From: Anas platyrhynchos
Taxonomy: Eukaryota
DNA length: 64,000 bases
Direction of reading: 5' to 3'
Assembly: GCF_047663525.1 (NCBI RefSeq)
Contig: NC_092619.1
Span: 4,629,441-4,693,440 of the forward strand
Both the position numbers and the translations under genes were made by a program. The notes below the pieces were generated by a model, which worked only from the letters and a program-made list of their open reading frames with translations, was not told where the DNA came from and searched no databases. Shown in pieces: positions 14,172 through 40,560 of the stretch (position 1 is the first letter of the stretch; every line of letters starts with the position of its first letter).

Positions 14172-14624
14172 AGAAATGTGTGTGGCACTATGGTAGTATT
14201 CTGTGTTCTCATGGAAGAGGATTTTAGTGTGTTTCTCAATACAACGGAAAATTTGTGGAAAAAAAGTCCTTTTCCTTAAAAATCTTTTTATTGAATACGT
14301 TATTAAACACTACTTCTTCCCATCCACTCCCTCTGAATTCCAAAGTGGTTGATTGTTGTCTTTCCCCACTTAATCATTTTCACTCAAATATTTAGCCTTT
14401 GATGGGGGAAGGGAAAAAACCTTCCCTATAAAATTTATAGATTTATTTGATTTAAAAAGTTACCAAAATTCAGATTTTTTTTTTTATTTGTTTTGGTCAG
14501 TGAAGGCATTCAGCATGTGGAAATTCAGCATGAGGATTTAAATACGGAGAGTTTCTGTATTGTTTATAATGATACAGATTTGTTCCGTCTCTTTTATCAT
14601 TGGCATTTGGATGGATATCAAGTT

Positions 14625-14630
14625 AATAAA
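14625..14630 (+). other. ACADM: candidate ACADM polyadenylation signal AATAAA (alternatives: ATTAAA at 14302-14307, AATAAA at 14725-14730)
   Basis: Canonical hexamers in the AT-rich 3' UTR downstream of the stop. Which one is used cannot be told from sequence alone. Confidence 0.35.
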
Positions 14631-17619
14631 TCTCAGGGAAATAGTTACTTACAAATGCTATTCTAATTCCTCAGGAATACCATGTTGCAGCAGATTGTCT
14701 CTAGGTCACCTAGAGCTAGCTGAAAATAAATACGCTAACATGTTGGTTTTGTTGGCCTTTAGAAATTCATATTTAAAAAAAAAAAAAAAGAATATTAATT
14801 TCTGAACCATTCGAAAGCATGTATTATCATGAAATAGAACACACTGCACTATTATTTTTCTCAAACAGAGACAGGATTACTATTTGTAGTTTGTCTATAT
14901 TTTATGTGTGTCCCTGAAGCAATATGAACAAAACCTACTTCTTGTTTTCAAAAGACACAGCATAATAGGGCTTATTTTCAATTTCTTAACCACGTTATTC
15001 ACCTAAATCCAGCACTGAAAAAAATGTCATTGAAAGCCTTTATCTCTGTTCTTCAAAGAAACCTGTTGTGTTCATGAAGAAAATACTTGTGCCTTCTCCT
15101 GTGCAAGACGTCTGCGTTACAGTTGGGTGTTATGGATAGCTTTTGGTAAAAATAATTATGTGGTTTTGTTATAGCATAAATAAGAATGATTGTTCAATTT
15201 TTAACTTTTTAATTTTAACCAATGCCACATAAAATAACCTCTAGGAAACATTGCCATATTTTCATTTATAATGTATCTATTCTAAATTTGAACATTACTC
15301 CAAAAATCCAAGTACAAAAAGGGCAAGAAACGAGAACCTCACAACACAATGTTTTTTCACTGTAAAGTTAGATGATCAAAATGTTATTTCTGACAGCCAT
15401 TGCTGCATTCAAATAAAAACTCATTTTAAACAGAGAGGCGTGGTGGTTTTTATTCATTTTGTTTGCCACATCATTTAAATTGTATTTTGCATAAGTTGTC
15501 CAGCTTCTGAAACAGACAAATAGCTGCACCTCAGTTCCTCCTGTGCTACTGCCCACGACAGCTGCGTGGCTGTTGCGGTTCAGCAGTGTGAAGGCTTTGC
15601 CTGCATGAAGACTGTTCTGAGGACTAAGATCCAACCCAGCAGTGACGGTATGCGGCTTGAAGGAAAGCAGCCTCTCTGACTGGTGCACTTGCTTAAGTAA
15701 ATGTTCAGTCACGATGATTCACTTCAAGTCAAAGTGAAACTTTTCCTTAAGAATGACTTATGTGATCATTTTTATTTCAGATTCAATGTATTTAAAGGTA
15801 TATTCCTTTCCATCAGTGTATGCACTTAACTGTTTGCAGCAGGAACAGCCAAGGAAGAGGAATTTTTGAGAATTTTGTGTTTTGTTTTGGAATTTGGCTA
15901 GGCTCTGCTGGGCAGTGCTGGCAGAACGCGTGTTCCCTGGATGTCTTGGAAAAATTACTCAGCCACATCTGGAGTGCCATATCCAGCTCTGGGCTCCCCA
16001 GCATAAGAGAGAGATGGAGCTACAGGAGACAGTCAAAGGGCCGCTAAATGACAGACAGATGGGACAGCTGCACTGAAGGAACAGATGACAGATTCTGGTA
16101 TTTGTCACATCACGTCACAGTGAGAGTGGTGGGATAAATGCCAACACAGGTCAGATGTTTGTTTTCTGTATAGTCAGTGCTGTCCAGGTAAATTGCAGAA
16201 AAGCAATTTCTAATCAATGGTTTTGATGATTGCAAATTTAAAAAACAAGTACTCTTGGGTAGCAATAACAAAAACTATTTCAGTATGTTACTTAAAAACA
16301 AACACTAATGGACAGACCTTCAGGAGTTAGTCCTATCACTTTCTAAAATAAATAAATCAAATTATAGAATGATGTGCTTTAAAGTTCATAATGGTGACTT
16401 TGCACTCCTGATAAATTTTATAATACTCTGGCTACAGGTTCTCCTGGAACTTCAAATGATTTCCTTTGGATTTTTAAAATTCTCTGCACATTCAGGTGAA
16501 AGCCCAGAAAATGAGTACTGTTTTAATTTTTATATATCTATGCATATATGCATGTGTCTATATAGATGCACATATTACTGTATTTTATAATATTTAATTA
16601 CTTGGTATTTATATAAGCTATGCATTTATGTAATATGTATGATTCAAGTGCAGTACATCTACATTTTAGTACTATACAAAGGAAATATGGTAGGAACCAG
16701 TTCTTGTTCTCAGATCTGCTTTTACGTTAAAAATAAAATGCTCATCAGACTGGTATCATTTTTTCTTTTCTTTTTTCTTTTTTTTTTTATCTGGCTTGTG
16801 GCTTTTTCTTCCCCCTGAGAAAAAGGATTTAATCTCAGTCTTATTTTTTCACCATAGTGACTAGCATTATAAATTTAACTTATAACCATCTATTATGCCT
16901 TTTTTTCCTGTTCCTTCTCATGCAAACCATGGTGGAAAACAATACTCAAAAGCTTCTAAAAAATTGCTTGATTACTTGCACCTCCAGTCCCATCTCATGG
17001 AAGAAATGTTTAAATGGTGTTACAAAAAATAAGATAGTATCCTGGTTTCGGAAGAAAGTATATAGGAATTAAGGTATTGGATTTGAAACCTTTAGGGCAG
17101 AAGAATATTGCTTTCTTGGATCCCTGATGAGTGTTGACATGTATTATCTTATCTAAAGTAGATGTTTATCACCGGTTAAGCTCTAGAATTACTCAGAGAC
17201 CCAGGAAGCTGAAGTTTCTTTAGGTTCCAACCTTTGAGCTTCTCAGAGCTGTCCAGTTGAATTCCTTTCCCAAATTCTAATCCAGCACTAGGAGGCAGGG
17301 GTACACTGTAAGGTCGTTTACATTGATGTATTAGAGATGTGTAGTTCTTGGATTAATGACTGATGGTACTAGGAAATACTTCTACGATAACTGAATATAG
17401 CTTTAGAGACACGAAGTTGAAAAGTGTTAGCAAATGCTAATGATCGTAAAGTCTCGTGGTAAATTTAAGCAGCTTGTCTTGTGCACGTTCTTAGTCCAAA
17501 AACACCATTTAGTTTCCTGTATGTATAAAGGGCCTTGTCACATTGAGAGAGGGAGTTAGGAGAATACAATAAATCACTAACCTTTTAGAAAAGAATTTAC
17601 TAACTTTTAGAAAAGGGGG

Positions 17620-18170
17620 GAACTGGGAGAGGAAGCTAGGTGAATCTTATCAAGTAGAGATAAAGTGATAGCATGAAACTAGGATGCTCAAATTAATTAA
17701 AGCAAGAAGCCTTGGGCCCCAAGGTCAGTCTCCTAATAAGAGTGTGAGCCTATCTTAAGAAACTGGTCCTGCGGATGGACAAGAGCCAAGGAGCAACTGA
17801 GTCTGCACAGAGACAAGAGGTCAACGAGCGGTGACGAGGAAGAGTCATCAATCTTCATCCCCATGACCCCCAATGACCACCACCAGAATACACTGCGCAA
17901 GCGCAGATGGGAGGAGTTTATGGAAATGACTCCTTGGAACTAATTTTAATATGGAGCGGGACAGGTTATGAATATGTATAGGCGTATTGTGAAACTTCAT
18001 GCATATGTAACACTTTACTGCATAAAACCAAGACAAGTTGCTGCGTCAGGTGCACACAACTTTGGCAGGACTACCCCCTGTGCTGCCCAGCGCTGAATAA
18101 ACATACCTACTTTACAATCTTACTGATTGTGGAGTCCGTTTTCCGCAAGTCAACATCTTCCAGGTAAGTG
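17620..18170. mobile_element. LTR-like repeat copy A (preceded by polypurine tract aaaaggggggaa; contains TATA-like and AATAAA signals)
   Basis: About 75% identical to the block at 21440-21690 over at least 200 bp, including gctgcccagcgctgaataaacatacc versus cacccagtgctgcaataaacatacc. No gag, pol or env ORFs lie between the copies. Confidence 0.3.
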
Positions 18171-21100
18171 TACCAGAATAATTGCAGAATTGCAAAATCC
18201 AACAATCAAAATCATGTTCTTGAATCAGTTTGATTAAAACCTGCTTTAGCTCAGGGTTTTAGGCTGGGTGTAGCTTTTATGGTTTAGCTTCCAGGTTTAA
18301 GTGTACCAAAGAAAATCTGCAGCTCTAGTCAGTCTTGCTTTAAAAACAACAATTGTTTCTACTTCTGCCCAGATACCAGAGAGAACCCAAATATTTAAGG
18401 CTGATCAAGAATTCCAGTATTTTGAGAATCTACTGCCCTGCAATTATCAAGTGGGGCACTACAGATAAATGTTAAAATTGTATAGCTATTTACAGATTAC
18501 CACTAGTTGAACTGATTTGCATATATATAGCTATACATAAACTGAAAATGATTTGTTCACTGTTACGTGTAGTAAAGATCCAGATCGCTTGAGCTGTAGT
18601 GTGCACTTTGTGAATGAGGAGATAATCCGTCAGCTGGAAAAGAAAACAGTACAGAGGCATCTTTTTGGTTAATTTTTATCATTGTGTAAAACCTAGTATT
18701 CTAGCATTTTGTTCTGTATTTTCAATAGAGATTTAAAGGTGGTTTTGTTGATGCTGACAAAACTAATCTTTATTTCGTTCCCTGCAATTTACATTCTCGG
18801 AGAAATACATACAAGATTTTCATGTGCTGTACTTCTAGCAAGCCCTAAATCACTTGCACAAGCACAGTCTTCTCATTCGTATTGCTGAAGCTTGTGTATT
18901 TAATGAGGGTGATAGAATACAAAGGAACTTGATGTACCTTAGTTGCATTTCTGATTGCAGGGGAAAGTAAATGCTACTGATGTGGGGAAGGCCATATAAT
19001 TAATTTTGTCCTGTATGAAGGAATTTATTGTAGGCAGAATTCTGAATTGTGTGCAAGTCAGGTGAGTTTTTCTTTACATGGAGATGCTTTAAATAAGCAG
19101 TTACTGCATACTACCTCTAAATGTTCCTTTCCAACTTCTACAAGTAATACCATTTAATCATCAACTATTCTCATTATAATAGTAAAAATCACGCTCTAGG
19201 CTGTGAGACCCCAGCCCGACCAGGAATCCTTCCACTCTGAAGATGTGCAGAATGATTCTGTCATGTTAGCTTTATAATCATGTAAGCAGTCAGAGGCTGG
19301 GGGATTGTAAAAACATAAAGGTATTGATAAGAGATTGTATAAAGGGTGACGCAGAAAATCCGTAGGTGTGCCAGCCTTGTGGAAAACCACGTGGTACTAA
19401 ACAATAACAATATCTCAACCTAGTGTGTCGATTGGCTTATTGTATGTTGGGTAATGAATCCAAACTTTTTATCAGACAACAGAAGCAGCCCCCAGGGTAT
19501 TCATAGTCCCTTGCTCCACAAACAAGAAGTGCAGAAGCAGTTTTACCATTCACACCTCTATTTGCTCATGGGCTCTTCCTCATTCCAGAGAATTATCTGA
19601 TAATTGTGTTTGCTCAAGTTTAGCCCAGTACAGTCAGCAAGATGACTCAGGGAGGAGGCAGTATGGCATTGACACTCAAAAAAGGTATGTGCAGTCATTT
19701 TCAAATTTGGAAAGCTAAGAAACAAGTTTTCACAGAAAAAATACACAAGAGATGGTCACTATTCTACAAGTCATAGACTTCAGTCTGGTATTCTCAGACA
19801 GCTCTCTTGCTGCTTCCTTCATAATATGAGACCATCACATTTCCAAAATACTCTTTTCTGCTACTTAGAATACTTTGCTCCAGTTATATTGCAAAGAGCT
19901 CTTACCCTTGGCAACAACTAGCCTCATAGTTGCCAAAGCTCTAATTGTATATAATTTGCATTATAAGAAACAGTTACTAATTTTGCTCAAGTTGCCTTTT
20001 GCCACTAAGGAGAATTAGGAGTACTTTCACAGGTGAAGGAAGGGGAAATGAAAAAAAAAAAAAAAAAAAAAATGGGATATGCCTTTTTGCATGTATCCCA
20101 AAATGAAGAGTCAGGATTCATATGCTGGAACTTCAATTACCTTTCAAGAAACTGGGGATCCAGAAGCTGGATGATTAGGTTTTAAGTAGCTGAGGGTACT
20201 TACTCCAATAAAAGACAAGTCTGTGGGAAAAAAAAAAAAAAAAATGCATTTTCTTCATGAAGAGAATACCACGAAATTGGGAATCTTAATACTTTCCAGA
20301 AATCTTGTGGTAAGGATTTGGTCCTAAATCTTGAGAAATTATAGGATCCTGAGACAGTAAGTCAACTCCAAGAACTACAGGAGAGGATGTGAATGTTATC
20401 ACCTGTCATTAAGAAGCAAATACCCCAACCGATGTGGTGACAGCAGCAGCAAGAGGAGAGGACGCACAAGCAGGCAGAACTGTCTGTCAAAGTCAAGTGC
20501 AGGAAGAAAGGGCAGAGCTGGAACCTGTAAAGACAGGGTGATAGAGGACAGATGATGTAATAAGGGAGAGGATGAGTTGAAAACAGTCAAGGAAGTGGAG
20601 AGCATCAAGAAAGGAGTTATTTCATGCAGTGGAAAGAAATTGCCAACAGGACAGAAAGCAATCTTTCCATTTTGGAAAGAACCTTTTAGCAAAGCGGTGC
20701 TCCCCAGCCCACTATTTGGCCATCATCCTGCAAAACAGTATTATATTTTTTGGATTTTCACACCTCCTTAGGCATAATGTACTGATTCTTCACTGTTTTT
20801 CATTCCTGCATAGAGTCATTTTTAAACATATAAAGTGTTGGAGAATATCAGAACTCCAAGCGCGTAATAACACATGTAGGATTTCAGAGCTTTATTAATT
20901 TAATAAGAAGCTTTATTAACAGTAATCAGAGGGAAAGAATGGCAGCATCTCTCTCTTGTGTTCTCTACCCGATTGCAGAGACCCGATTTACACACTGTTT
21001 CAAAGAAAGGAAAGAGGTAAGGAAAAAACATTATAACATTAACAAAGTCAAGTGTGCTTTCCTGGGAAGGATGGATGCCAGAATATCATTTAGATCTTAA

Positions 21101-21439
21101 GAAGAAGGAAGTACCCATTCCTGGAAGGGGTGGACTCCTTAAGCATCTTGTTAACTGCCACAATTGACGCCCTGGTTAGACATGTAGGAGTGTCAAACCC
21201 AGTATTATTAGCTCAGAAAACAGGAATAATCAAACTGCTAGGTTTTGGTTGAAAGCAATGTTCTTTTTGCTAGGTGAACTTCTTCATCAGGCATCTTATA
21301 TCTTAAATATTGGTGTTTTGTTGTTGTTTTTGTTTTATTTTGTTTTCCCACCACACAGGGACTCCATTTTTAGGACACATTTCAATTCTGAAATGTTCAT
21401 TTAGAAGCCAGCCTGGAGTTTTTGTGTCACAGGCACTGC

Positions 21440-21690
21440 AGAGCCTGCAGGGTGTTAAACGAGGTGCAGAGTGTGCCTCCTGCAGCCACCGCAGCCCACG
21501 CCAGCACATATCCCAGTGACAGTGTCCCAGAGGGGGTGAAGTGAGATTAATATGTATATATTCCATTAATATAAGTACCCTAGCAGTAACCCTTGGTGTG
21601 CAAGCTAGGAGGAGCAATCCCTCTTGCACCCAGTGCTGCAATAAACATACCGGCTTTATAACTCTCCTCAAGTTGTAAAGTTTGATTTCT
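21440..21690. mobile_element. LTR-like repeat copy B (truncated by or abutting the CR1 at 21690)
   Basis: Same evidence as for copy A. Confidence 0.3.
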
Positions 21691-22575
21691 GTACCTCACA
21701 GCTGATACAACAGAAGTAAGGGAAACCCTCCAAAGGGACCTGGGAAAAAGTTTGGGAAGTGGCCCCTCATAAACATAATGAGGTTCAACAAGTCCAAGTG
21801 CAAGGTGCTACACCTGGGTCAGGGCAGTCCGAGACATAAGGACAGACTGGGAGAAGAACTCATTGAGAGCAGCCCTGCAGAGAAGGACTTGAGGGTTCTG
21901 GTGGATGGAAAGCCTGCCATGAGCCAGCAGTTTGTGCTTGCAGCCCAGAAGGCCAACTGCATCCTGGGCTGCATCAACAGAAGAATGGGCAGCAGGTGGA
22001 GGGAGGGGATTGTCCCCCTCTGCTCCACCCTTGGGAGGCCACATAGCATCATTAAGGTTGGAAAAGTACACACTTGAAGTATTGCATCCATATCCAGCAA
22101 CACCAACACAAAAAGGATGTTGATCTGTTAGAGTAGGTCCAGAAGAGGGCCACAAAGATGATCAAGGGGCTTCTTCTCCTATGAAGACAGGCTGAGAGAG
22201 CAGGGGTTGTTCAGCCTGGAGAAGGCTCTAGGGAGACCTCATTGCAGCCTTTCAATACTCAAAGGGGACTGATGAATTAATGGAGAGCAACTTTTTACAT
22301 GAACAAATAATGATAGTACACTGGCGGATGGTTTTAAACTAAAAGAGAGGAGATTTAGATATTAGGAGGAAATTCTTCATTCAGAGGGTAGTGAGGTACT
22401 GGGACAGGTTGTGCAGAGAAGTGGATGCCCCATCCCTGGAGATGTTCAAAGACCAAGTTGGACAAGGCCCTGGTCAACCTGATCTAATGGGTGGCATCCC
22501 TGCCCATGGCAGGTGGATTGGAACTGGATGATCTTTAAGGTTCCTTCCAACCCAAGGCATTCTATGTTCCCTCAA
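21690..22575 (+). mobile_element. CR1 3' portion (RT C-terminus to 3' terminus)
   Basis: [74 protein letters not shown]... Ends ...gatctttaaggttccttccaacccaaggcattctatg. Confidence 0.85.
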
Positions 22576-23900
22576 GTACCTGGCACGGCTCCTCTGTCCA
22601 CCTGGAACCCCTCCCCAGACTCCAGGCCCCTTACCCACTTCAAAGGTCACCCATTGACTAGCTGATCCAGCTTGAAGCTCACTGCAAATGCACACTCATC
22701 CCTCATGCATGCCACAGTCACAAGTGTCCCTGGGCATAGCAGCATGATTCCCTGATTCCCACCTGATTCCCTGGCCTGACACCTCAGCCCAGACCCAAGG
22801 CCCCCATTACTCGCTGGCTTGTCCAGCTTAAAGTTTGCAGGTGAATGCACGTGTACACCCCATGCAGGCCAGTTTGGTGAAGATGCAGATGCTCAGGCCC
22901 CCCAGCAGCCAGCACCAGGCTGTGACCCATGGCCCTGATCCAGCTGCTGGTGCAGAGCCTGCACTCACCTCACACCAGTTGCCCCCAGCAGCTCTTTGGG
23001 AGCACACAATGCTCACTCCCCATGGCTGGGAGGAGAAGACCCCCCACTCACTCCAGCAGCTGATGCCAGGACCCCACTGGACCCAGTAGGTGGCACCACA
23101 GGCCAGGTGCCCACTCCTCCAGTCAGACTGGCACACAGTCCACTCAAACAAACACACACAAACACCCCTGAGTTAAAAGCAAAATAATGAGAAAGAAGTA
23201 GATAGGACAGACTGCGGTGATCAGATGCAAAGCAGACAAGTGTACATCCCATTTTGCCTGTGAACCACCATTTTACACTTTTTCTGCCTGCCCCCCCTAT
23301 GTTCCTCCTGCTTCCTTTTCAACTTGCACTTCCCACATGGGTTTGCAGTGCTCTGCAGTTTCCTGTATCCCTCACAGTCCAAGGTCTCCCTGGTTTACAG
23401 TCTTATCTGTTGCAAAGTCCATGTTGATCCGCCTAGAAGTATTTTGATAGCTCATCAACTAGTGTGACTGAGAGTGATTTTTTTTTTTTCTTGTCATTGT
23501 CTCCATGTTTGTTTTGTCAGGTCTTTGCCTTAGCATTTTGCATATTGTTCCCCTTTCTTTTCTTATCAGCCTGATCCAGAAATCCTCACTCAGAAACCAT
23601 TGCTTGAATCAACAGTCCCACATCCTGTCTCTTCTCTTATTTATTACAACTGTACAGGTTTGTTTCTGGTCAGTCTACTAACTTAAAAGTCCTTGATCAA
23701 GATAAACCTGCTGGAATAAACCTTCCACATTCTCACATGCCCTTACCAATCAGTGTGACCAGACACCAGAGATACTGAAGGGAAGCAACAGAAGGGTAAT
23801 CCTTGCAGGTCCGGCCAAGACTACACAGGGTTACACTGACAACTGCAGCAACTCTGATCCTGCAACTCCCTTCCAGAGAAGTGGGACTGTAAAACTTAGC

Positions 23901-24257: not shown

Positions 24258-24539
24258 CCCTTTAAAGGTACTTAGCAGCAGTACTAAGTATGCTCCATGA
24301 GTGCATCCTTCCCAGGAGATGAAACAAATGGCTGAGAATTGTTGTGTAAGAAGAGATGATGAACTTCTTTCTGGTTCTTTAAGTGGGAGAATGTCAGATT
24401 ATGTGATAAAAGCTCATCTACCCAGCCACAAAGGAACACAGAAGCATGATGACAGGTGGTCATACCCTGCAAAACACACTCTGATGTCACTGCCCCCAAC
24501 CCCACCATCACTTTGACTTTACAGCTGCAATCTATTTGC

Positions 24540-25545: not shown

Positions 25546-25551
25546 ACGCAC

Positions 25552-31250: not shown

Positions 31251-31439
31251 CATGGAGGTCCCTGCACTGTCACCTGCTCCTTAGGGCCCATCGCCAGCCT
31301 GTGGGATTACACATCAAGGACAGGAGTTACATGACAGAGACTGCCAAGGATGTGTTACAAGTCCCTACACTGCCACCTGGTCCCCAGGGCCCTGCATGGC
31401 CAACTCGAAACGCAGCACGACTTCACACCCTGTCAAGGA

Positions 31440-32050: not shown

Positions 32051-32309
32051 CAACAGAAGGACGTGCCTAGGACATGCCCAGGACACACAAGTCCCCACAC
32101 CATCACCTGCTCCCTGGGGCTTGGCACCACCAACACTGGGCTCTGCATCGGTCAGTGGGGCCACCTACCACAGATGTGCCAACAGTAACATCATCTAAAC
32201 CCAGCACCGCCCTCTGCGTCACCTCTGTGCCCCAAATCCTCCTCCTGCGTCCTCCCCACCATATCCACCATGTCCCTGCCCCACCATGCCCACAACCACA
32301 GGTGCTCAC

Positions 32310-32560
32310 CGTGCCCGCCGCTCGCGGTAGTCGTAGACCTGCACAGCAGCGTTGTGGGGCACCTGGTAGGTGACGGCACGGGTACGGTCACGGTGCTGGA
32401 CCTCAGCATCCGGGCTCGAGGAGGAGGGGACCCCAGCATCCAGGCCAGTGCGGTCTCCACGGGCTTCGGCCAGCAGTGCCTCCACCCCAGGGGGCAGCTC
32501 CTTCTCCCACAGCTCCTCGGACTCCGTCAACATGTAGGTCTGGCCCGTCACCACCCGCAC
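32310..32560 (-). CDS. MVP: MVP exon 9 ([83 protein letters not shown]-)
   Basis: Acceptor gtgaatgcag; donor GTGAGC. Length 251 nt. Matches human [30 protein letters not shown]...[24 protein letters not shown]. Confidence 0.85.
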
Positions 32561-32569
32561 CTGCATTCA

Positions 32570-33500
32570 CACCCACCTCATGGTGCTGCTGGGCTGGGAC
32601 GGCCGCTGGGGGCACTGGGAAGGGATTTGGAGGGCACTGGAAGCACTTGGAGGGTGTATGAAGGCATTAGGAGGGGCACTGGGAGCATTGGGAGTTTGGG
32701 GGCACTGGATGGGTATAAGAGACACCGGGAGCACTAGGATGGTGTGTCTGGGGACATTGGGAAGGTCTGGGGGAACTGAACAGGGGTTTGAACACACTGG
32801 AAGCAGATATATGGGATACTGGGAGCCCTGGGATGGACTGTGGAAGGTGACGGGGGGTACTGAAAGGGGGTCCAGGGTGCACTGGGAGCATGTCTGGGGC
32901 CACATGGGATACTGGGAGCACTGGAAAGCAGTGTGTGGGATACTGGGGTAGGTTATAGGAAGCACTGGGAAGGGAGCTGGAGGCACTAAGATGGATTTTG
33001 GGAGCACTGGGAGAGGGTCTGGGGATACTGGATTGGGATACGGGGGCACTGGAGGAATGTGGAACACTGGCAGGAGAACTGGGAGCACTGGGAGTGGGAG
33101 TGGAGGGCTATAGTGAGCTCGTGAGATTACTTGGTCTATAGGGAGTCCTGGCTGTTTTGGGGAACTACGGGGAGCTATGTGAATTACAGGAAGCTACTGA
33201 GGGCAATGGGGAGGACCTGAAGGCATCTGTGGGGGCCGCAGGGTGCTATAGAGGGCTGTGGGTGAGTGGGAAACGTTTATGTGGGTCTACAAAGGATTAC
33301 TGGGGGCTATAAGGAGCTGCAGGGATCTATGGAGAACTACAGAGTGCTGTAGGGGAGCCCTAGAAGTCTACAGGGAGCAGTAATGGGATTATGGGGAGCC
33401 ACAGAGAGCTAAAGGGGGCTATAAGGGGGCTATAGGAGACATGAAGGGCTATAGGAGGCCACAGGAAAATCAGCTACAGGGAGCTACGAGCTCCAGGGGA
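32570..33500. repeat. two adjacent minisatellites filling MVP intron 8: GGGCACTGGGAGCACTGG-like units (32570-33115) and GGAGCTATAGG / GGAGCTACAGG units (33115-33500)
   Basis: Clear tandem periodicity of about 20-25 bp. Confidence 0.7.
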
Positions 33501-33522
33501 GCTAGAGCAGCGGGGCAGGCAC

Positions 33523-33681
33523 CTTGCCAGTGCGGATGTCGCGCACGTAAATGCCCTCGTTGTCAGCTAGGGCCACAGCCTGGCGACGTTCCAGCACAGC
33601 CACCTCGGCGGGCGGCACGTACTCGAGGGGGCCCCGGGCCAGCCAGCGGTCACCTGCGCGCCGTGTCACCTCTGTCCCCTC
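33523..33681 (-). CDS. MVP: MVP exon 8 ([53 protein letters not shown])
   Basis: Acceptor catccccag; donor GTGCCT. Matches human ...[51 protein letters not shown]. Confidence 0.85.
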
Positions 33682-34154
33682 CTGGGGATGTGGGGATACC
33701 ATCAGCAACCAGCCTGGGGACGCAGGGACGCACGGACCCCTACCCAACCCCTGGCTGGGGACATGGGGACAGACGCACACCTCATGGCCCTCTGCTACCA
33801 GCCAGTCTGAAGGCATGGAGACAGAGAGCACCCCCACGGGCTGCCAGCTTGGGGACAGCACCCCCTCCCACTGTCCTCTGCCACCCACCTGGCTTGGAGA
33901 CCCAATGATAAAGACGGATGTCCCCACAAGTGTCCCCCGAGACCTCCATAACCCCCCAGACATCCCCCACATACCCACCTGCCCCCAGGCACTCGACTGT
34001 CCCCCACGACATCCAGCCACCAGCGGGTCCCCCAGTTGTCCCCTTTGTCCCCAAATCACTCCTGGTTGCCCCGGGCATCCCAGGCTCCCTGGACCCCCAG
34101 TTTCTCCCAGGTGCCTCCAGGTGATCCTGTAAGCCTGGGTGCCCCCTGGGTCAC

Positions 34155-34280
34155 CTCACTGGTGTCCTTGATCGTCTGGAGCGCCTGAAGCAGTAGCCCC
34201 TCATCCTCAGAGAGCACAAAGACATCCTGGATGCCATCCTGGAGCCGCTCGCCTGGTTGCAGAAAGAAGGACCTCTCCCC
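34155..34280 (-). CDS. MVP: MVP exon 7 ([42 protein letters not shown])
   Basis: Acceptor acatccccag; donor GTGACC. Matches human [44 protein letters not shown]. Confidence 0.85.
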
Positions 34281-34439
34281 CTGGGGATGTGGGAATGTGT
34301 CACCAGCAGGGCAAGGACGTGGCAACGTGGTGAGGACACGGGGCAGGAGCATGGGGATACGGTGAGACACAGTACAGAATATATGGAAGGGGACATTAGG
34401 GCCCCTCAAGGATTCCTTTGGGTCCCTGTGGACCACTTT

Positions 34440-34960
34440 TAAGACCTTCAGGGATGTCTACAGGTATGTCAGGGCCAACTTCAAGTCCCTGGGGACCAAC
34501 CATGGGCTGCTGTAGAAACTTAGCATCCCTCATCAACACATTTAGGTGTTAATTTAGGTGTTGTAGGGTGCTTTGGGACCACCATTGAGATATTTGGGAA
34601 TGCCTACATGTACATCAGGGCCACCCGTGGGCTCCTTGGGGGCACTCAGGGCACCTCGGGGACACCTCAGGGGTCATGCCAGGATCCCTCAGGGATAACT
34701 TTGGGACTTTAAGGGATGCCTCAGAGATGCATTAGGGTCCCTTGGGGCCACCTTTGAGACCTCTGGGGACACCTATACATATACCAGATTCCCTCAGAGC
34801 CATCTGTGTGGCCCCTGGGGCCACCCTCAGGTCCTGAGGTCCACACTTGGGACCCCTGGGGCACCTTACTGTCCCCCACTGATACATTAGGGGCACATTA
34901 TGTCTTAGAGCTGCTCAGGACCACACCTTTGATACCTGTGGGGAAGCTAAGGTCACATTA
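34440..34960. repeat. degenerate tandem repeats (CCTGGGGACC / CCTCAGGGAT units) in MVP intron 6
   Basis: Periodic ggg(g)acc / cctcag motifs. Confidence 0.55.
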
Positions 34961-34989
34961 GGTCACTTGCGAGTCCCTGGGGTGCCCAC

Positions 34990-35226
34990 CTTGATCACAC
35001 GTTGCTGGCCCAACTGGGGCTGCCCGTTGGGCCCCACAGGGTCGAGCACCACGCAGTACTGCCGGGGACCCAGCGTCGTCACCTGCACCTCAGCCACCAC
35101 CTCCTCGAACACCTCTGGGACGTAGGCCTCGCTCTGCTGCTGCGTCACCAGCCACTCCTCACCCGTGCGGCGCACCCGGCCCTGTGCATCCTCAAAGGTC
35201 CGTACGGCTCGCAGGTGCAGGGCTTT
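34990..35226 (-). CDS. MVP: MVP exon 6 ([79 protein letters not shown])
   Basis: Acceptor cccgtag; donor GTGGGC. Length 237 nt. Matches human [80 protein letters not shown]. Confidence 0.85.
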
Positions 35227-36130
35227 CTACGGGAGGGAGGGACAACAGTGGGTGGTGGGACACCAAAAGCTGGCCCCGCCAGGCCTTGTCACCTGTGTGG
35301 GCAAGGCGACAGGGTTATGGGACTTCAGACTCGTCCCATACGGTCCTTGTTATGTGCGGGTGAAGGGAAGACAGGGATATAGTGGATTGCAGCAGGGCTG
35401 GACCCTCTAGAGAGTCCTTGTCACCCACAGGTGCAGGGAAAAAGGGGACACAGTGGGCTCAGGGCAGGGGGAATGGGACCCTCAAACATATCCCCAAGGA
35501 GCCTCGTCACCTGCGGGTGCAGGGGGCACAGGGGGGTGACGGTACCCCACACCTATCCTGGAAGGTCACTTGCCAGCTTGGGTGCAAGAGAATAGCGACA
35601 CAGAACCCCCAAACCCATCCTGAAAGGTCCCTAACACCTGTCTGTGCCCAGAGCACGTAACAGGACCCCCAAATCAGGTCTTTGTTACCTATCAGTACAG
35701 CAGGAATGGGGTCATGGTGGGCTGGTGGGGACAGGATACCCGGAGGGTCCACATCACCCCCTGAGGCAGGGGGAACAAAGACAGCATAGCTGAGGGGGAC
35801 AGTACCCCTCACACAGTCCTCAACACCCATGGGTGCAGGGGGCATGGCAACATGGTGGGTTGGAAGGTCCCTCAGAGGGTTCTCATCACCCATGGGTGCA
35901 ATGGGGACAGTGCCATGATGGATCAGGGGGATAAGACCCTTCACCCACCCTGGAGGATCCTTGTCACACCCACGGTTGCAGGAGAATAGGTACACGGACC
36001 CCCAAACCCAGTCCAGAGGGACCTCCAGAGGCACCACAGGCATGGCTACACTACTGGCTCAGGTCCTGGAGAGTCCCTGTCATCTGCAGGGGCAGGGGAA
36101 ACCACGGGCAAGGGTCACGATGCCAGGTAC
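35227..36130. repeat. minisatellite of about 12 units of 65-80 bp filling MVP intron 5; unit derived from the exon-6 acceptor junction
   Basis: Units such as gtccttgtcacccacaggtgcagggaaaaaggggacacagtgggctcagg are homologous to ...ggtccgtacggctcgcaggtgcagggctttc|tacgggagggagggacaacagtgggtgg, which spans the exon 6 / intron 5 boundary at 35190-35260. Confidence 0.7.
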
Positions 36131-36225
36131 CTTGTCGGTGAGGACGTAGGCGTCCACAACGTCGACCACCTCCTCGTAGACACCGGGCAGGTAGGCACCC
36201 ACCCGCTTCACCAGCCACTCCTCCC
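36131..36225 (-). CDS. MVP: MVP exon 5 ([32 protein letters not shown])
   Basis: Acceptor tctgctcccag; donor GTACCT. Matches human [32 protein letters not shown]. Confidence 0.85.
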
Positions 36226-36239
36226 CTGGGAGCAGAGGG

Positions 36240-37220
36240 ATGGGGCTAAGGATGCTGCGGTGCTGGGCAGGGTGGGGACTGGGAGTCCCAGGGGGACTGG
36301 GATGGGATGCGTTTTGAGGGGACTGGGGCATATGCAGGTCCTAAGGGTGCTAAGCATCCTATGGATCTTAGGTGTCCTAAAGGTGCTGGGAGCAAAGGGC
36401 CCTAGGGGGCAGATGGAAGAATCCTAAGGGTGCTGGGGGTACTGGTAGTTATGGGAGCCCTGTGGGTGCTGGGAATCTTGAGGGGCTAGGGGCTAAGACA
36501 GGGTCCCACAGGTGCTATGGGAGAGGAGGGAGGTTATGGGGTTGGGCAGGATGGATGTGTTGGGCATCACAGGGGCGCAGTGGGGTCAGACAGGGATGCT
36601 GGAGGTGCTGTAGGGTGAGAGGGGGTGCTGGACGGTGGAATGGGAATGCGGGAGACCCCAGGCAAGCTGAGGGATGAGGCAAGTGTCCCAAAGTGTCCCA
36701 CACATGCCGCAGCGCCCAGGGGTGCTTCTGAATAACACAGAAATCCCATGGGTGTTAGGGGGTGACACAGGGGGTGACACAGGGCTCCCAGTGGTGCTGG
36801 AGGGGTCCCATGGGCGCTCAGGATGCTGGGAGTCCCAGGAGGGCTGTCAGACAACACAGAAGGTGTGTGCATGCTTAGAGGAGACACAAGGATTGCGGGG
36901 GTGCTTGGGGTCCCAGAAGTTCTGGGAGATGGGTTGGGGCGCTGCAGGCTCCAGGGGCACTCTCAGATGACCCGGAGCTCCCATGGGTGCTGAAGGGTGA
37001 CACGGGCGTCACAGAGGGGCTGGAGGGGGAGAAGAGGATCCCAGGGTATGGGGTGTGGTGTCTCAGGGCTGCCTTCAGGCAACACTGGGGTCCCATGGGT
37101 GCTGAGGGGGGGGACACCAGAGGCACAGGGTGACACTGAGCCAGCTAACACTGAGTGAGGGCTGAACCCAGGAAGCCACTGCGGCTACCAGGGAGCCCTG
37201 GAGTGTCACCGGGTGCAACG
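36240..37220. repeat. minisatellite filling MVP intron 4 (units around GGTCCCATGGGTGCTGAGGGGGTGACACAG)
   Basis: Many copies of gggtgctgg(g)ag ... tcccatgggtgct. Confidence 0.65.
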
Positions 37221-37239
37221 GGGTGTCCACGAGTGCTAC

Positions 37240-37371
37240 CTGTGACGCGGCGGATGCCCTGACGGTCGAGGCACTCCTTGCGTGCCCGCAGGCGGATGGC
37301 CTGGTTGTGCCCGATGACAGTGGCCTGCAGCGTCTCCACCACCTCCACCTCCTTGCGGGGGATGTAGGTAC
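37240..37371 (-). CDS. MVP: MVP exon 4 ([43 protein letters not shown])
   Basis: Acceptor tgcgtgcag; donor GTAGCA. Matches human [44 protein letters not shown]. Confidence 0.85.
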
Positions 37372-37452
37372 CTGCACGCAGGCAGCACCATCAGCCCCCA
37401 GCTCCCTGAGGTTTCCCCAGGGGGTCCTCAGGAAGGTGTCCCTGCTGCTCAC

Positions 37453-37576
37453 CAGGACCCTCGAAGAGCCACTCGTCGCCTGCTACGAACTTGTTGGAAT
37501 CCTCGTCCTCAAAGTCAAGCAGGGCCCGAAGGCGCAGGGCGGTGTCAGCCAGCACCACCTGCAGTGGGGTGACACC
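37453..37576 (-). CDS. MVP: MVP exon 3 ([41 protein letters not shown]-)
   Basis: Acceptor tgtccccag; donor GTGAGC. Matches human [42 protein letters not shown]. Intron 3 is only 81 bp. Confidence 0.85.
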
Positions 37577-37599
37577 CTGGGGACACAGGTGTCGGAAGA

Positions 37600-38600
37600 G
37601 AGTTGAGTGAGACAACGTGGGGGCATGGGCATCGTAGCGGAGGTGTGGCAGATGTGGAGGGTGAGAGGGATGGTTTCAGGGGTTGTCCTGGGGGCACAGT
37701 AGCAGACACGGGGACACAGAGGGGTCACTGCAGGAGACGTAGATGGGAAGTGTCACTGTGGACTAGGTGGGGACACAGGGTCACGACAGGGCTGTGAGAG
37801 TAAGGGGGGTACAAGGGTCCTTGCAGGGAAATGGTGGACATGGGGGTCACTGTGATGGACCTGAGTTTAACCCGGGGGACTGGGACAAAGGTTTTCACCA
37901 TGGGGGATGTGGGCGACAGGCTGGGGATGGGGACAGTACAGGGGCACGAGTGACACTTTGGCGACAGAACACACTGAAGGGATTGGAAACAATGCAGGGA
38001 CACCTTGGGGAGAGGTACACAGGCTCAGCGCAAGGACAAGGATGACACACTGAGGGGGGGGGGGTCTACAGGATAAATTCTGGGCCATGAGATGGCTAGA
38101 GCAGGTATGGAAGAGAACGGGGAACTATAGGGGCTATAGGAGCTGTGAGAAACAAGAGGGGGATTAGAGGAGCTCTAGGGGCTATGGGTAGCCATGGAAG
38201 GTTACGGAGATGTGTTACAGAGAGGGATTGTGGAGTCTATAGAAGTTACAGGAGACTGGGGGGTGGGAGAGTGGGAGGGAGCAGAGGAAGCACAGCGGTG
38301 CCAAATGAACTGTAGGAGCTCCAGGGGTGCTGAGGAGCCTGTAAAGAGCTGCAGGAATACCTGAGCAGGCAGCTGGAAGGATTACAGAAAAACCCAGTGG
38401 GTTACAGGAACTCTAAGAGAGCCATTGGTGAGCTAGAGTTGTTCCAGGGGTCATGAAGGGCTAAAATAGCTGAAGCAGCTATAGGGGACCACAGCAAACT
38501 GCAACTCAGCTATAACGGGCCACGGTGGGGCTAAGAGTTATAGAAGACTGTCATATGCTACAAGAGCTGGGGGGCTGTCTGTAACTACCAGGAAGGCTGC
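37600..38600. repeat. minisatellites in MVP intron 2 (GGGACACAGG/GTGACAC units 37600-38050; GGAGCTATAGG/GGGCTACAGG units 38090-38600)
   Basis: Tandem degenerate 10-25-bp units visible by eye. Confidence 0.65.
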
Positions 38601-38644
38601 AGGGGCCTGGGGGGGCACTGCAGGGAGGGCGGTGTTACAGGTAC

Positions 38645-38840
38645 CTGCTGGAGCTCCTCGCCGGGGTACAGGGGGAAGGGCTCCTGGGCCAGGCGGACGT
38701 CGAGGTCAGCGTGCCGCAGACGGACCTGTCCTGCGCCATCCACCAGCACAGCCCCCGTAGGGCTCCGGGCCACGGGGTTGAGCACCACGCAGTAGTGGCG
38801 GGGGGGCACCATCACCATGCGTTTGGGCGCAAACACCACC
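38645..38840 (-). CDS. MVP: MVP exon 2 ([65 protein letters not shown])
   Basis: Acceptor gtacccacag; donor GTACCT. Matches human [66 protein letters not shown]. Confidence 0.85.
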
Positions 38841-38859
38841 CTGTGGGTACCCCCACACT

Positions 38860-39300
38860 GCTCCCCTCAGCTCTACAGAGCCCCCAGGGCCCTATGGAAC
38901 CCCTCAAGTCCTCCACAGCCCCAGTCTAGCCCCACAGCCCTCCTATGGCCCTCTACAGCCTTATGGAACCAACTCGGTCCTATAGAGGTCCTACGATCCT
39001 ACAGAACCCTCAAAAAAACCCCAACAGCCCCACAGAGCCCCTGCAGCCCTGTACACCTTCCCCCCCCCCAAGGGCCCATGAAGTCCACATAGCCCTACAG
39101 AGACCCCCAACACCTCCCACTGTCCTAAAGAGCCCCCGCAGAGCTTCCTCAAACATCACTCACAGCCCTGTAAACCCAGATCACTCTGTAGCTACGTAAA
39201 TCCCCCCCACCCCATAGCACGAATGTTTTGTAGCCCTGCCAACCACAGCATGGCACTCCCACCCCACAGCTGCTCCCCCCCCCCCCGCCACAGCATCCAC
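38860..39300. repeat. GC-rich minisatellite (CCCCACAGCCC / CCTACAG family) in MVP intron 1; reverse complement of the GGAGCTATAGG family
   Basis: Repeated ccc(c)acagcc / cctatgg / ctacag motifs. Confidence 0.65.
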
Positions 39301-39340
39301 ATCTTTCGCTGAAGGAAGGAGACTGCCCCAAAGCACCCAC

Positions 39341-39459
39341 CTCTCGTGGTCCTGCCTGATGTAGGTGTGGGGCCCAACCTCCACACGAGTGACGTTACTG
39401 TTGAGGTCCAGCACGTGGACATAGTGGTAGGGGGGTATGCGGATCACAGGGTCTTCCAT
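39341..39459 (-). CDS. MVP: MVP first coding segment ([39 protein letters not shown]-), ATG at 39459..39457
   Basis: Matches the human MVP N-terminus [42 protein letters not shown]; donor GTGGGT at 39340..39335. The upstream non-coding exon and its acceptor are not resolved. Confidence 0.8.
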
Positions 39460-39469
39460 CGGGTAGGAG

Positions 39470-40030
39470 GCTTCGCCGTGCAACAGGAGACTTTGCCACG
39501 GGGGCGGGCGAGCTCGCTGTGGGACAGAACAGCCTGCTGTGGCTCACCGTGGGAGTGGCAGGCCTTGCCACAGGCCAGAAAAGCTTAACCTGGGGCAGGT
39601 GAAGTCCCTGGGGGGCAGATGAAGTTGCCATGGGGTGGATGAGATTGCCAGGGGAGCAGAAGACCTGGCCGTGGGGTAGGGGACCACGTCACGGCTCACT
39701 GAGAGACCTCGCCACAGGCTCCGCGGTGGGGTAAGAGACTACATCATGGGCCAGAAGGGCTTGCCAGGAGGCAGAGGAGCTCGCTGCGGGGCAAAAGGAG
39801 CTCTCCGGGGAGAAGACGAGCTCACACCGCGGGCTGGGCGACCTCGCCACGGGGAAGACGAGCTCCCCGTGCCGCGGGTAAGCTCGCCACGGGCTGCGGC
39901 ACCCCAAAATGGCCGGGACACCTCGCTCCGGGGCAGGAGAGCTTTCTGCCGGGCAGACAGCCCCGCCGCGGGGCAGGAGACCTCACCTGGGGCGGCGAAG
40001 GAGATGAGCTCGCTGGGGGGGGGGGGGTCA
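39470..40030. repeat. minisatellite, about 30-bp unit (GAGCTCGCCACGGGGCAGGAGA-like), roughly 18 copies, in the MVP 5' UTR intron
   Basis: Visible tandem periodicity of gagctcgc(c/t)(a/g)cggggc... units. Confidence 0.7.
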
Positions 40031-40039
40031 GGAGATCTG

Positions 40040-40560
40040 CCCTGAGGCACAGCAGCAGGCGGCAGAGCGGAGGAAGCCCGGAAGAGCTCTTTGCCTTTGC
40101 CCTGGCCCAGCCCTGCACGCAAGGCAGGGCCCAGCCCACCGGGGCCGCCCCACGGGCCGGGATCTGCCCCCCACCCGCGGCGGGACTGACCCCAGGCAGG
40201 GCGTGCCCCCCCTTCCCCCCACCAAGGCGGATTTACCCCCAGGTAAACGCGGACTGACGCAGGGCAGCCCCCGCTCCCCGAGGCGGATCTGCCCCGGGCG
40301 GCTCCCCGTTTCTCCGGGCACACCCCGGGGGGGGCTGCGGGGCACGGCCGGGCTGGCTCCAGCAGCGGGCACAGCCCCGGGCCGGGCCGGGCCGGGCCGG
40401 GCCCCCCCCCCCGGCAGGCTCCAGCCCGTCGCTAGGCGACCGCCGCCGCCATTTTGCCGGTCGCAGGCGCCGCTCCCTTTGCCCCCTTCCTGCCTCATTG
40501 GGAGGGGTTGGGGGGGGGGGGCGGGGAGGTTTGTGGTATGTGGAAAAACTCAAAGCAAAT
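40040..40560 (-). promoter_or_regulatory. MVP: CpG island / presumed MVP promoter and 5' non-coding exon region
   Basis: Extremely GC- and CpG-rich: (GCCGGGCC)n at 40378-40402, poly-C and poly-G runs. It lies directly upstream, in gene orientation, of the MVP first coding segment, which sits after a minisatellite-rich 5' UTR intron. Confidence 0.5.

What the first reader, a model, noticed from the sequence alone, without database searches (positions are those of the whole stretch)
14200..40560. MVP lies 10 kb downstream of ACADM, tail-to-tail: a gene order not expected from human synteny
ACADM at 843-14171 on the + strand and MVP at 24635-39459 on the - strand are both unambiguous. In human, ACADM sits at 1p31 next to RABGGTB and MSH4, whereas MVP sits at 16p11.2 between PAGR1 and CDIPT. 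No RABGGTB-like exons were noticed in the 10-kb intergenic space. That space contains only CR1 and LTR-like repeats, and nothing RABGGTB-like is visible in the >=60-aa ORF track of this region (small exons were not searched). The junction therefore represents either an avian or lineage-specific rearrangement joining a macrochromosomal gene to a GC-rich microchromosome-type gene, or an assembly chimera. The abrupt shift at about 22.5-24.5 kb from AT-rich, repeat-poor sequence to GC-rich, minisatellite-laden sequence is consistent with either.
Basis: partly seen in the sequence, partly recalled or inferred. Interest (0 to 1): 0.55.

Follow-up and report, generated by a model that had tools for sequence, protein, structure and literature searches.

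The report
Decayed RABGGTB copy between duck ACADM and MVP
In this duck sequence, ACADM and MVP really are neighbours, and the "empty" 10 kb between them holds the eroded remains of RABGGTB, ACADM's normal neighbour; this points to an old bird-lineage duplication of ACADM-RABGGTB beside MVP, not to an assembly error.

Summary
An intact 12-exon ACADM lies at 843-14171 (+). An intact MVP lies at 39459-24635 (-). They are tail-to-tail, 10,463 bp apart, and GC rises from about 0.36 to 0.61 between 20 and 25 kb.

The claim that the spacer holds nothing RABGGTB-like is wrong. Positions 16059-19144 (+) are an unprocessed RABGGTB pseudogene. It aligns collinearly, exons and introns, with functional bird RABGGTB genes. 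It has in-frame stops and a degenerate copy of SNORD45, the intronic snoRNA of RABGGTB.

The window is from Anas. A second Anas assembly matches positions 5-24181 in one block at 98%. A bustard contig also has MVP tail-to-tail with a RABGGTB pseudogene. Falcon and penguin have ACADM followed by the same pseudogene. Tinamou and parrot keep the human-like SLC44A5-ACADM-RABGGTB(-MSH4) order with a working RABGGTB.

Best reading: an ACADM-RABGGTB segment was duplicated beside MVP around the base of Neognathae. The RABGGTB copy decayed and the ACADM copy stayed intact. Galliforms then lost the original ACADM; ducks probably did too, but that was not tested. This is real and old, not a chimera, and only moderately interesting.

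The parts
843..14171 (+). ACADM, an intact 12-exon gene encoding 423 aa. Exon 1 is 843-866, exon 2 is 3731-3830, exon 3 starts at 4115, and the stop codon TAA is at 14169-14171.
   Evidence: tblastn with human ACADM gives 75-93% identity per exon. All splice sites are GT-AG, read directly from the sequence. Pfam finds Acyl-CoA_dh_N, _M and _1. The protein is an exact match to Anas XP_038027498.1 and XP_068521653.1.
14172..16058 (+). ACADM 3' flank. It is homologous to the ACADM-RABGGTB intergenic DNA of the ancestral locus. The RABGGTB promoter and exons 1-2 are missing here.
   Evidence: Window 14174-15563 aligns with Amazona L008 8283-8748. In L008, RABGGTB exon 1 and exon 2 (aa 1-37) at 10004-10114 and the intron SNORD45 copies have no counterpart in the window.
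16059..19144 (+). Unprocessed RABGGTB pseudogene. It holds an exon-3 relic at 16059-16190 (stops at two codons), intron 3, an exon-5 relic at 18793-18834 and an exon-6 relic at 18955-19020 (one stop). Exons 4 and 7-9 are not detectable.
   Evidence: tblastn results. Collinear nucleotide alignment with functional RABGGTB of Penelope L006, Amazona L008/L009 and Eudromia L007. The same stops are present in the second Anas assembly, L011.
17119..17203 (+). SNORD45 relic: the intron-3 snoRNA of RABGGTB, with degenerate boxes.
   Evidence: Rfam RF00279 scores 44.9 bits against a gathering score of 42. In the alignment with other birds, D' reads CTTA, C' reads AGATG, D reads CAGA and the terminal stem is weakened.
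19145..24634 (.). Repeat-rich filler and the zone of GC transition. CR1 fragments lie at about 21.7-22.6 kb and 23.7-24.25 kb. No RABGGTB exon 7-9, MSH4 or CDIPT signal was found.
   Evidence: Only multi-copy matches were found. The composition profile shows the GC rise. tblastn for CDIPT was negative.
24635..39459 (-). MVP (major vault protein), an intact multi-exon gene with a 4-kb intron at 28.3-32.3 kb.
   Evidence: Fifteen collinear tblastn segments cover aa 4-893 of human MVP. Pfam finds Vault, Vault_2, Vault_3, Vault_4 and MVP_shoulder. The protein is 86% identical to Chlamydotis MVP.
58379..62434 (+). Conserved non-coding block 'X'. It marks the neighbourhood of this locus in other birds but sits in a different arrangement in each species examined.
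   Evidence: X is orthologous to L002 207-5794 (upstream of falcon ACADM) and to L001 1117-6431 (upstream of bustard MVP). tblastx shows no coding signature.

Best explanation
The window shows the derived 'B' copy of the ACADM-RABGGTB block of birds.

Proposed history:
1. A genomic segment was duplicated and came to lie tail-to-tail against MVP. The segment ran from a few kb upstream of ACADM to at least intron 8 of RABGGTB, about 30 kb in parrot coordinates. This happened at about the time Galloanserae and Neoaves split.
2. The RABGGTB copy degenerated into an unprocessed pseudogene. It possibly arrived without its last exon.
3. The ACADM copy stayed under selection.
4. The ancestral 'A' locus (SLC44A5-ACADM-RABGGTB-MSH4) kept the working RABGGTB.
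5. In Galliformes the ACADM of the A locus was deleted. Ducks probably lost it too, which would make the B copy beside MVP the working ACADM. Many Neoaves still carry both ('ACADM' and 'ACADM-like').
6. The GC step at 20-25 kb is the old boundary between the AT-rich imported block and the GC-rich MVP neighbourhood, later padded by CR1 insertions.

Shown: the pseudogene; the shared MVP adjacency; the existence of both loci in birds; the paralogy within Neoaves.
Inferred: a single origin that includes the duck; the timing; loss of the duck's A-locus ACADM.
For: Pseudogene and snoRNA relic:
-.

Not an artefact:
- The stops and the layout are the same in a second Anas assembly. L011 forms one 24-kb block at 98% identity.

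Shared junction:
- In bustard L001, MVP (+) is followed on the - strand by RABGGTB exon 7-8 relics with stops. Homology reaches intron 8, and two SNORD45 copies are present.

Same block elsewhere:
- Falcon and penguin have ACADM followed by a RABGGTB pseudogene with SNORD45.
- In both, homology to the ancestral locus starts at the same left edge, L009 position 5637.

Ancestral locus still present:
- Eudromia has SLC44A5-ACADM-RABGGTB. Amazona has SLC44A5-ACADM-RABGGTB-MSH4. Penelope has RABGGTB-MSH4.

Both loci in one taxon:
- Aptenodytes and Chlamydotis each have a functional RABGGTB as well as the pseudogene.
- 'ACADM' plus 'ACADM-like' pairs are annotated in Ficedula and Ciconia; further 'ACADM-like' genes are annotated in Corvus and Vidua.

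Paralogy:
- Falcon and penguin share 89 derived sites, against 18 and 10 shared with the parrot copy, over 4916 columns.
- In the intron-3 tree, the penguin, falcon and bustard pseudogenes form a clade with 100% support that excludes the functional Amazona gene.

Reciprocal loss in Galliformes:
- In Penelope, the 5' region of SLC44A5 lies 2-3 kb from RABGGTB with no ACADM between them.
- Chicken RABGGTB is on a 29.6-Mb chromosome, while chicken, Numida and Phasianus ACADM are found only on 39-67 kb contigs.

Shared lesion:
- Duck and penguin carry the same CGA->TGA stop in exon 3.

Age:
- After rate correction, duck-penguin, duck-parrot and penguin-parrot distances are all about 0.165, against about 0.10 for penguin-falcon. 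The A/B split is therefore about as old as the duck-Neoaves split.
Against: - The duck copy does not group significantly with the neoavian B copies. Site patterns are 48/40/32, and it joins the pseudogene clade in only 40% of bootstraps. A single origin therefore rests mainly on the shared MVP adjacency.
- The shared stop is a CpG transition and could be convergent.
Only another anseriform, Oxyura, shows a functional RABGGTB.
- In falcon and penguin, MVP was not reached within the 10-kb flank.
- The non-coding block X sits in a different position or orientation in duck, falcon and bustard, so the region has been rearranged further.
- An older chicken assembly placed MVP at the start of GGA28 (PMC2907691). 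Whether chicken ACADM lies beside it is unknown.
Confidence: 0.72

Rival explanations
1. Assembly chimera: two unrelated regions (an AT-rich chr8-type region and a GC-rich microchromosome-type region) were wrongly joined near 22-25 kb.
For: There is a strong compositional step at 20-25 kb, and repeats lie at the transition. An old chicken assembly placed MVP on GGA28.
Against: The window has no N runs. A second Anas assembly is collinear to 24181 in one block, and stops there only because of the 10-kb flank limit. A bustard contig without gaps independently joins MVP to a RABGGTB pseudogene in the same tail-to-tail geometry.
Confidence: 0.03
2. Independent origins. The duck arrangement arose separately in Anseriformes, by its own RABGGTB duplication and junction to MVP, and only resembles the neoavian ACADM-pseudogene-MVP locus.
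For: The duck copy is not resolved as sister to the neoavian B copies. The largest site-pattern class (48) in fact groups parrot with falcon+penguin. Duck ACADM keeps ancestral residues where neoavian B copies share derived ones, such as GDVANQ and ...YKA. The duck's left edge of homology differs from that of falcon and penguin.
Against: It would need the same two genes to be joined in the same orientation twice, with the same gene decaying each time. Duck and penguin share the same stop codon. Galliforms also have ACADM away from chr8 and no ACADM at the ancestral locus, which fits one old event.
Confidence: 0.12
3. No ACADM duplication in the duck lineage. This would be the original ACADM locus, and only RABGGTB was copied elsewhere, after which MVP-bearing DNA was inserted or translocated next to the old RABGGTB.
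For: Duck ACADM looks slow-evolving and ancestral, and lies in AT-rich DNA. The locus is on a 30-Mb chromosome of about chr8 size.
Against: No SLC44A5 lies within 10 kb upstream in L011, whereas it is 4-9 kb away in tinamou and parrot. Homology to the ancestral locus ends about 1.3 kb upstream of the ATG. The functional RABGGTB of parrot and Penelope keeps its ancestral neighbour MSH4, and parrot also keeps ACADM and SLC44A5, so that locus is the original.
Confidence: 0.1

Closest known systems
Human 1p31.1 block SLC44A5-ACADM-RABGGTB(SNORD45A/B/C)-MSH4
   Same: ACADM is followed on the same strand by RABGGTB sequence that carries SNORD45 in an intron. Human SNORD45C is listed with host gene RABGGTB in PMC8393311. 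The same order with a working RABGGTB is seen in tinamou and parrot.
   Different: Here RABGGTB is a ruin: it has stops, and exons 1-2, 4 and 7-9 are gone. SLC44A5 and MSH4 are absent, and MVP takes the place of MSH4.
Human 16p11.2 block PAGR1-MVP-CDIPT
   Same: An intact MVP lies in GC-rich DNA with a CpG-rich 5' end.
   Different: No PAGR1, PRRT2 or CDIPT signal was found anywhere in the window. The gene tail-to-tail with MVP is a RABGGTB pseudogene, not CDIPT.
Unprocessed (duplicated) pseudogenes and gene relocation by duplication followed by reciprocal loss
   Same: Introns are retained, disabling mutations are present and a functional parent gene exists elsewhere. Complementary survival is seen: ACADM is kept in the new copy and RABGGTB in the old one, and in galliforms ACADM is deleted from the old locus.
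   Different: Two neighbouring genes were sorted in opposite directions. In Neoaves both ACADM copies often persist.
Non-coding snoRNA host genes (for example GAS5 and the SNHG genes)
   Same: In penguin, bustard and falcon the decayed RABGGTB still surrounds a SNORD45 copy with all boxes intact.
   Different: In the duck window the snoRNA is itself degenerate. Transcription of the pseudogene was not tested in any species.

Membership tests
RABGGTB unprocessed pseudogene | Homology to the parent gene that includes introns and is collinear with it | tested here: met
   Window 16059-17543 and 18269-19144 align in order with exon 3, intron 3 and exons 5-6 of functional RABGGTB in L006, L007, L008 and L009.
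RABGGTB unprocessed pseudogene | Disabling lesions in the coding sequence | tested here: met
   There are two stops in the exon-3 relic and one in the exon-6 relic. Identity to RABGGTB is 44-57%, against about 90% for functional bird genes. Exons 1-2, 4 and 7-9 are not detectable. The same lesions occur in the second Anas assembly.
RABGGTB unprocessed pseudogene | A functional parent copy in the same genome | not testable with these tools
   The duck's own functional RABGGTB could not be fetched because the look-ups were exhausted. A functional RABGGTB is annotated in another anseriform (Oxyura, on a 32-Mb chromosome), in chicken, and in Aptenodytes and Chlamydotis, which also carry the pseudogene.
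SNORD45 (Rfam RF00279, C/D box snoRNA) | Covariance-model score at or above the gathering threshold | tested here: met
   44.9 bits against a threshold of 42; E = 1e-5 over the whole window.
SNORD45 (Rfam RF00279, C/D box snoRNA) | Intact C, D', C' and D boxes and terminal stem, as needed for a working snoRNP | tested here: not met
   In duck, box C TGATGA is kept, but D' reads CTTA, C' reads AGATG, D reads CAGA and the stem is GGATC. Penguin, bustard and falcon copies keep all boxes. In duck it is therefore a relic of the family, not a working member.
ACADM (medium-chain acyl-CoA dehydrogenase) | Full-length open reading frame with the three ACAD domains and close identity to known ACADM | tested here: met
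   12 exons encoding 423 aa, with Pfam N, M and C domains. Exact match to the annotated Anas ACADM, and 81-92% identity to human and lizard ACADM.
MVP (major vault protein) | Vault repeat domains plus shoulder domain plus C-terminal coiled-coil region, in an uninterrupted reading frame | tested here: met
   Pfam finds Vault, Vault_2, Vault_3, Vault_4 and MVP_shoulder. tblastn covers aa 4-893 of human MVP with no stop inside an exon.
Segmental duplication with reciprocal loss | Both copies of the block demonstrable, with complementary gene survival | tested here: inconclusive
   Demonstrated across birds. The A locus is seen in tinamou, parrot and Penelope. The B locus is seen in duck, falcon, penguin and bustard. 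ACADM is deleted at the Penelope A locus. It was not demonstrated within the duck genome itself.

The most novel reading that the evidence does not exclude
After the duplication, the protein gene and its intronic snoRNA were partitioned between the two copies, and lineages went opposite ways.
- In Neoaves the dead RABGGTB beside MVP survives as a non-coding host for an intact SNORD45 (penguin, bustard, falcon). The matching intron-3 SNORD45 of the functional RABGGTB has died, at least in Amazona.
- In Galloanserae the functional gene keeps that snoRNA (Penelope), and the copy beside MVP has died (duck).

This would be a case of duplication-degeneration-complementation acting on a host gene and its snoRNA. 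It would also explain why the pseudogene is still recognisable after roughly 90 million years.
Probability: 0.3. Interest if true: 0.55.

Novelty: new member of a known kind. Interest (0 to 1): 0.4.

Why it matters
- It replaces the "odd synteny or misassembly" reading of this locus with a concrete evolutionary history.
- It shows that the ACADM of galliforms, and probably of ducks, is likely a relocated duplicate beside MVP rather than the gene at the human-equivalent position. This matters for orthology calls, for synteny-based annotation (NCBI labels many bird copies 'ACADM-like'), and for reading 'missing gene' or CNV signals near MVP and ACADM in poultry.
- It gives a dated example, around the base of Neognathae, of two adjacent genes sorted in opposite directions after duplication.
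- It raises a possible case of a snoRNA and its host gene being split between duplicates.
- It is not a new kind of biological system.

Tried and rejected
- Search for 16p11.2 neighbours: tblastn with human PAGR1, CDIPT and the PRRT2 C-terminus, recalled from memory, found nothing in the window or in any locus.
- Pfam on the long ORFs at 21.7, 23.7, 55-57.6, 58.3, 61.5 and 62.3 kb: only a CR1-type endonuclease at 56706-57614. No hidden gene was found.
- Block X (58.4-62.4 kb) was tested for coding potential by tblastx. It is conserved in all frames with stops, so it is non-coding.
- My first idea was that the 97% and 88-90% classes of bird ACADM hits mark the two paralogues. This was partly an artefact: the penguin and stork 'ACADM-like' models contain a retained intron. 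The two falcon genes are a separate, recent duplication at 99.5% identity.
- Look-ups of P0126 and P0327 failed, because isoform products are not on record.
- A whole-region MAFFT alignment timed out. I replaced it with a duck-anchored BLAST alignment.
- No MSH4 or RABGGTB exon-9 relic was found in window 19-24.7 kb. In the bustard tail (L001 14.4-18.4 kb), homology to the functional gene stops in intron 8, short of exon 9.
- Literature searches for ACADM+RABGGTB+MVP and for an avian ACADM duplication found nothing relevant. The only useful item was the old placement of chicken MVP on GGA28.
- The shared CGA->TGA stop is kept only as weak evidence, because it is a CpG transition.

Full report
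**What is in the window.**
- The window is bird DNA. CR1 repeats are common.
- My 12-exon ACADM model runs from the ATG at 843 to the TAA at 14169-14171, with every intron GT-AG. It encodes a 423-aa protein that is an exact match to the annotated ACADM of Anas platyrhynchos and Anas acuta.
- Pfam finds the three acyl-CoA dehydrogenase domains.
- On the minus strand, fifteen collinear tblastn segments cover residues 4-893 of human MVP, from 39456 down to the stop at 24637-24635. Pfam finds the Vault repeat domains and the shoulder domain.
- GC is 0.34-0.39 up to 20 kb, 0.42-0.50 from 20 to 25 kb, and about 0.61 from 24 kb on.
- Tandem repeats in the MVP half are few and short.

**The spacer is not empty.**
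- I recalled the human RABGGTB sequence and checked it against the PDB. It is identical to chain 6o60_B.
- tblastn with it finds three relics on the ACADM strand, in the right order:
  - residues 60-104 at 16059-16190 (E = 6e-5), reading MGQLH*RNR*QILVFV...;
  - residues 137-150 at 18793-18834;
  - residues 155-176 at 18955-19020, with another stop.
- At DNA level, 16059-17543 and 18269-19144 align collinearly with exon 3, intron 3 and exons 5-6 of the functional RABGGTB genes of Penelope, Amazona and Eudromia. This is a genomic, intron-bearing copy and not a retrocopy.
- Rfam finds SNORD45 at 17119-17203 on the same strand, above the curated threshold. In human, SNORD45C is hosted by RABGGTB (PMC8393311).
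- In the functional bird genes the matching SNORD45 copy sits in the same intron.
- The duck copy has lost its D', C' and D boxes, so it is a relic.
- Exons 1-2 with the promoter, and exons 4 and 7-9, are not detectable.
- From 19.1 to 24.6 kb only multi-copy CR1-type sequence is recognisable.

**Is the junction real?**
- A second Anas assembly (GCA_963932015.1, a 30.1-Mb chromosome, 3.34-3.37 Mb) aligns with window 5-24181 in one block at 98.0%. It carries the same stop codons. It ends 450 bp short of MVP only because of the 10-kb flank limit.
- Independently, a gap-free contig of the bustard Chlamydotis macqueenii has MVP followed, tail-to-tail, by:
  - RABGGTB exon 7 and 8 relics with stops;
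  - homology to the functional gene up to intron 8;
  - two SNORD45 copies.
- An assembly chimera is therefore very unlikely, and the MVP/RABGGTB-pseudogene junction is not peculiar to ducks.

**Two loci in birds.**
- The ancestral 'A' locus:
  - Eudromia (tinamou) has SLC44A5(-), ACADM(+), RABGGTB(+) with a working RABGGTB.
  - Amazona has SLC44A5-ACADM-RABGGTB-MSH4.
  - Penelope has RABGGTB-MSH4.
  - This is the human 1p31 order.
- The derived 'B' locus: falcon and king penguin have ACADM followed by a decayed RABGGTB with SNORD45. Their homology to the ancestral locus starts at the same point upstream of ACADM, Amazona L009 position 5637.
- Aptenodytes and Chlamydotis also have a functional RABGGTB annotated elsewhere.
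- 'ACADM' plus 'ACADM-like' pairs are annotated in Ficedula and Ciconia, and further 'ACADM-like' genes in Corvus and Vidua.
- Over 4916 aligned columns, falcon and penguin share 89 derived sites, against 18 and 10 shared with the parrot copy. Falcons are closer to parrots in the accepted bird tree (established knowledge: Australaves). The falcon and penguin copies are therefore paralogous to the parrot copy.
- The intron-3 tree agrees. The penguin, falcon and bustard pseudogenes form a clade with 100% support that excludes the functional Amazona gene.

**Where the duck fits.**
- The duck copy is not resolved in these trees. Site patterns are 48/40/32, and it joins the pseudogene clade in 40% of bootstraps.
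- After correcting for rate differences, duck-penguin, duck-parrot and penguin-parrot distances are all about 0.165, against about 0.10 for penguin-falcon. The A/B split is thus about as old as the split between Galloanserae and Neoaves.
- I place the duck in the B lineage for three reasons:
  - it shares the rare MVP adjacency with the bustard;
  - it shares a CGA->TGA stop with the penguin, which is weak evidence because it is a CpG site;
  - the galliform data below fit one old event.
- Galliform data:
  - In Penelope the 5' region of SLC44A5 lies 2-3 kb from RABGGTB with no ACADM between them.
  - Chicken RABGGTB is on a 29.6-Mb chromosome.
  - Chicken, guineafowl and pheasant ACADM are found only on 39-67 kb contigs. 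These contigs are GC-rich, and the protein is fast-evolving at 88% identity.
  - So in Galliformes the original ACADM is gone and the surviving gene is off the ancestral locus.
- I infer the same for ducks but could not view the duck's A locus.

**Mechanism proposed.**
- A segment of about 30 kb, from a few kb upstream of ACADM to at least intron 8 of RABGGTB, was duplicated and landed against the 3' end of MVP.
- The bustard homology stops in intron 8. The RABGGTB copy may therefore have lacked its last exon from the start. This is inference.
- RABGGTB then decayed and ACADM was kept.
- The GC step marks the old boundary, and CR1 elements were inserted later.
- Outside birds, the two genes appear to lie on different chromosomes in turtles: ACADM on chromosomes of 107-113 Mb and a Caretta MVP fragment on one of 133.9 Mb. 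These come from different species, so this is weak evidence.
- An old chicken assembly placed MVP at the start of GGA28, in a segment called as a copy-number loss in duck (PMC2907691).

**Loose ends.**
- A non-coding block at 58.4-62.4 kb is orthologous to DNA just upstream of ACADM in falcon and just upstream of MVP in bustard. Position or orientation differs in each species, so the neighbourhood has been inverted more than once.
- The falcon has two 99.5%-identical copies of the B block 220 kb apart.
- The penguin pseudogene is partly duplicated in tandem.
- The intron-3 SNORD45 is intact in the neoavian pseudogenes but dead in the functional Amazona gene. It is intact in the functional Penelope and tinamou genes but dead in the duck pseudogene. 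This complementary pattern is the basis of the 'novel case' and is untested.

**Verdict.**
The 'nothing RABGGTB-like' statement is wrong, and the chimera reading is rejected.
- The junction is an old, shared avian feature produced by duplication and reciprocal loss. It is a new example of a known kind of event.
- I found no description of it in the searchable literature.
- It is of moderate interest to avian comparative genomics and annotation.

Noticed in passing
window 17119-17203; L005 25755-25839; L001 22125-22209 (-); L002 23297-23381; L009 about 28300-28400; L006 13590-13673; L007 27533-27617: The intron-3 SNORD45 copy keeps all boxes in the RABGGTB pseudogenes of penguin, bustard and falcon (66-68 bits). 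It also keeps them in the functional genes of Penelope and tinamou. It is degenerate in the duck pseudogene and in the functional Amazona gene. This looks like complementary retention between the duplicates.
   Followed up: partly
window 58379-62434; L002 207-5794; L001 1117-6431: A conserved non-coding block of about 5 kb lies 19 kb upstream of MVP in duck, directly upstream of ACADM in falcon and directly upstream of MVP in bustard. Its position or orientation differs in each species, so there were repeated local inversions, or scaffolding differences.
   Followed up: partly
L003 (Falco peregrinus CM042631.1, 104.66-104.69 Mb) and L010 (104.45-104.47 Mb): Two copies of ACADM plus the RABGGTB pseudogene lie 220 kb apart and are 99.5% identical over 18 kb or more. 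This is either a very recent falcon duplication or a false duplication in the assembly. The second copy is preceded by an acrosin-like serine protease gene.
   Followed up: partly
L005 25234-25302 and 29766-29834; 25755-25839 and 29997-30079: The penguin pseudogene carries two identical exon-2 relics and two SNORD45 copies. This indicates a partial tandem duplication inside the decayed gene.
   Followed up: no
L006 6825-8073 versus L007 103-3929; L004: In Penelope the 5' part of SLC44A5 lies 2-3 kb from RABGGTB and ACADM is absent. A 50-N gap at 9126-9175 lies in between. Pheasant ACADM sits on a 53-kb, 55% GC contig, is the most divergent bird ACADM seen (88% identity), and is followed by a 178-aa ankyrin-repeat gene.
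   Followed up: partly
window 55351-57614 (+): A 455-aa ORF is followed by a 303-aa ORF with an endonuclease/exonuclease/phosphatase domain. This is the 5' half of a fairly intact CR1-type LINE. The same element matches the start of the penguin locus at 75% identity.
   Followed up: partly
window 25429-25545: A 21-bp minisatellite (5.6 copies, 89% matches) lies in the MVP intron between the exons at 25552-25680 and 25119-25361. It reads APPPSLQ repeats on the opposite strand. It is the only sizeable tandem array in the MVP half.
   Followed up: no
window 39500-41500: A CpG-rich stretch of about 2 kb (GC 0.61-0.64) covers the MVP start and extends upstream of it. No PAGR1-like or other gene was detected there.
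   Followed up: partly
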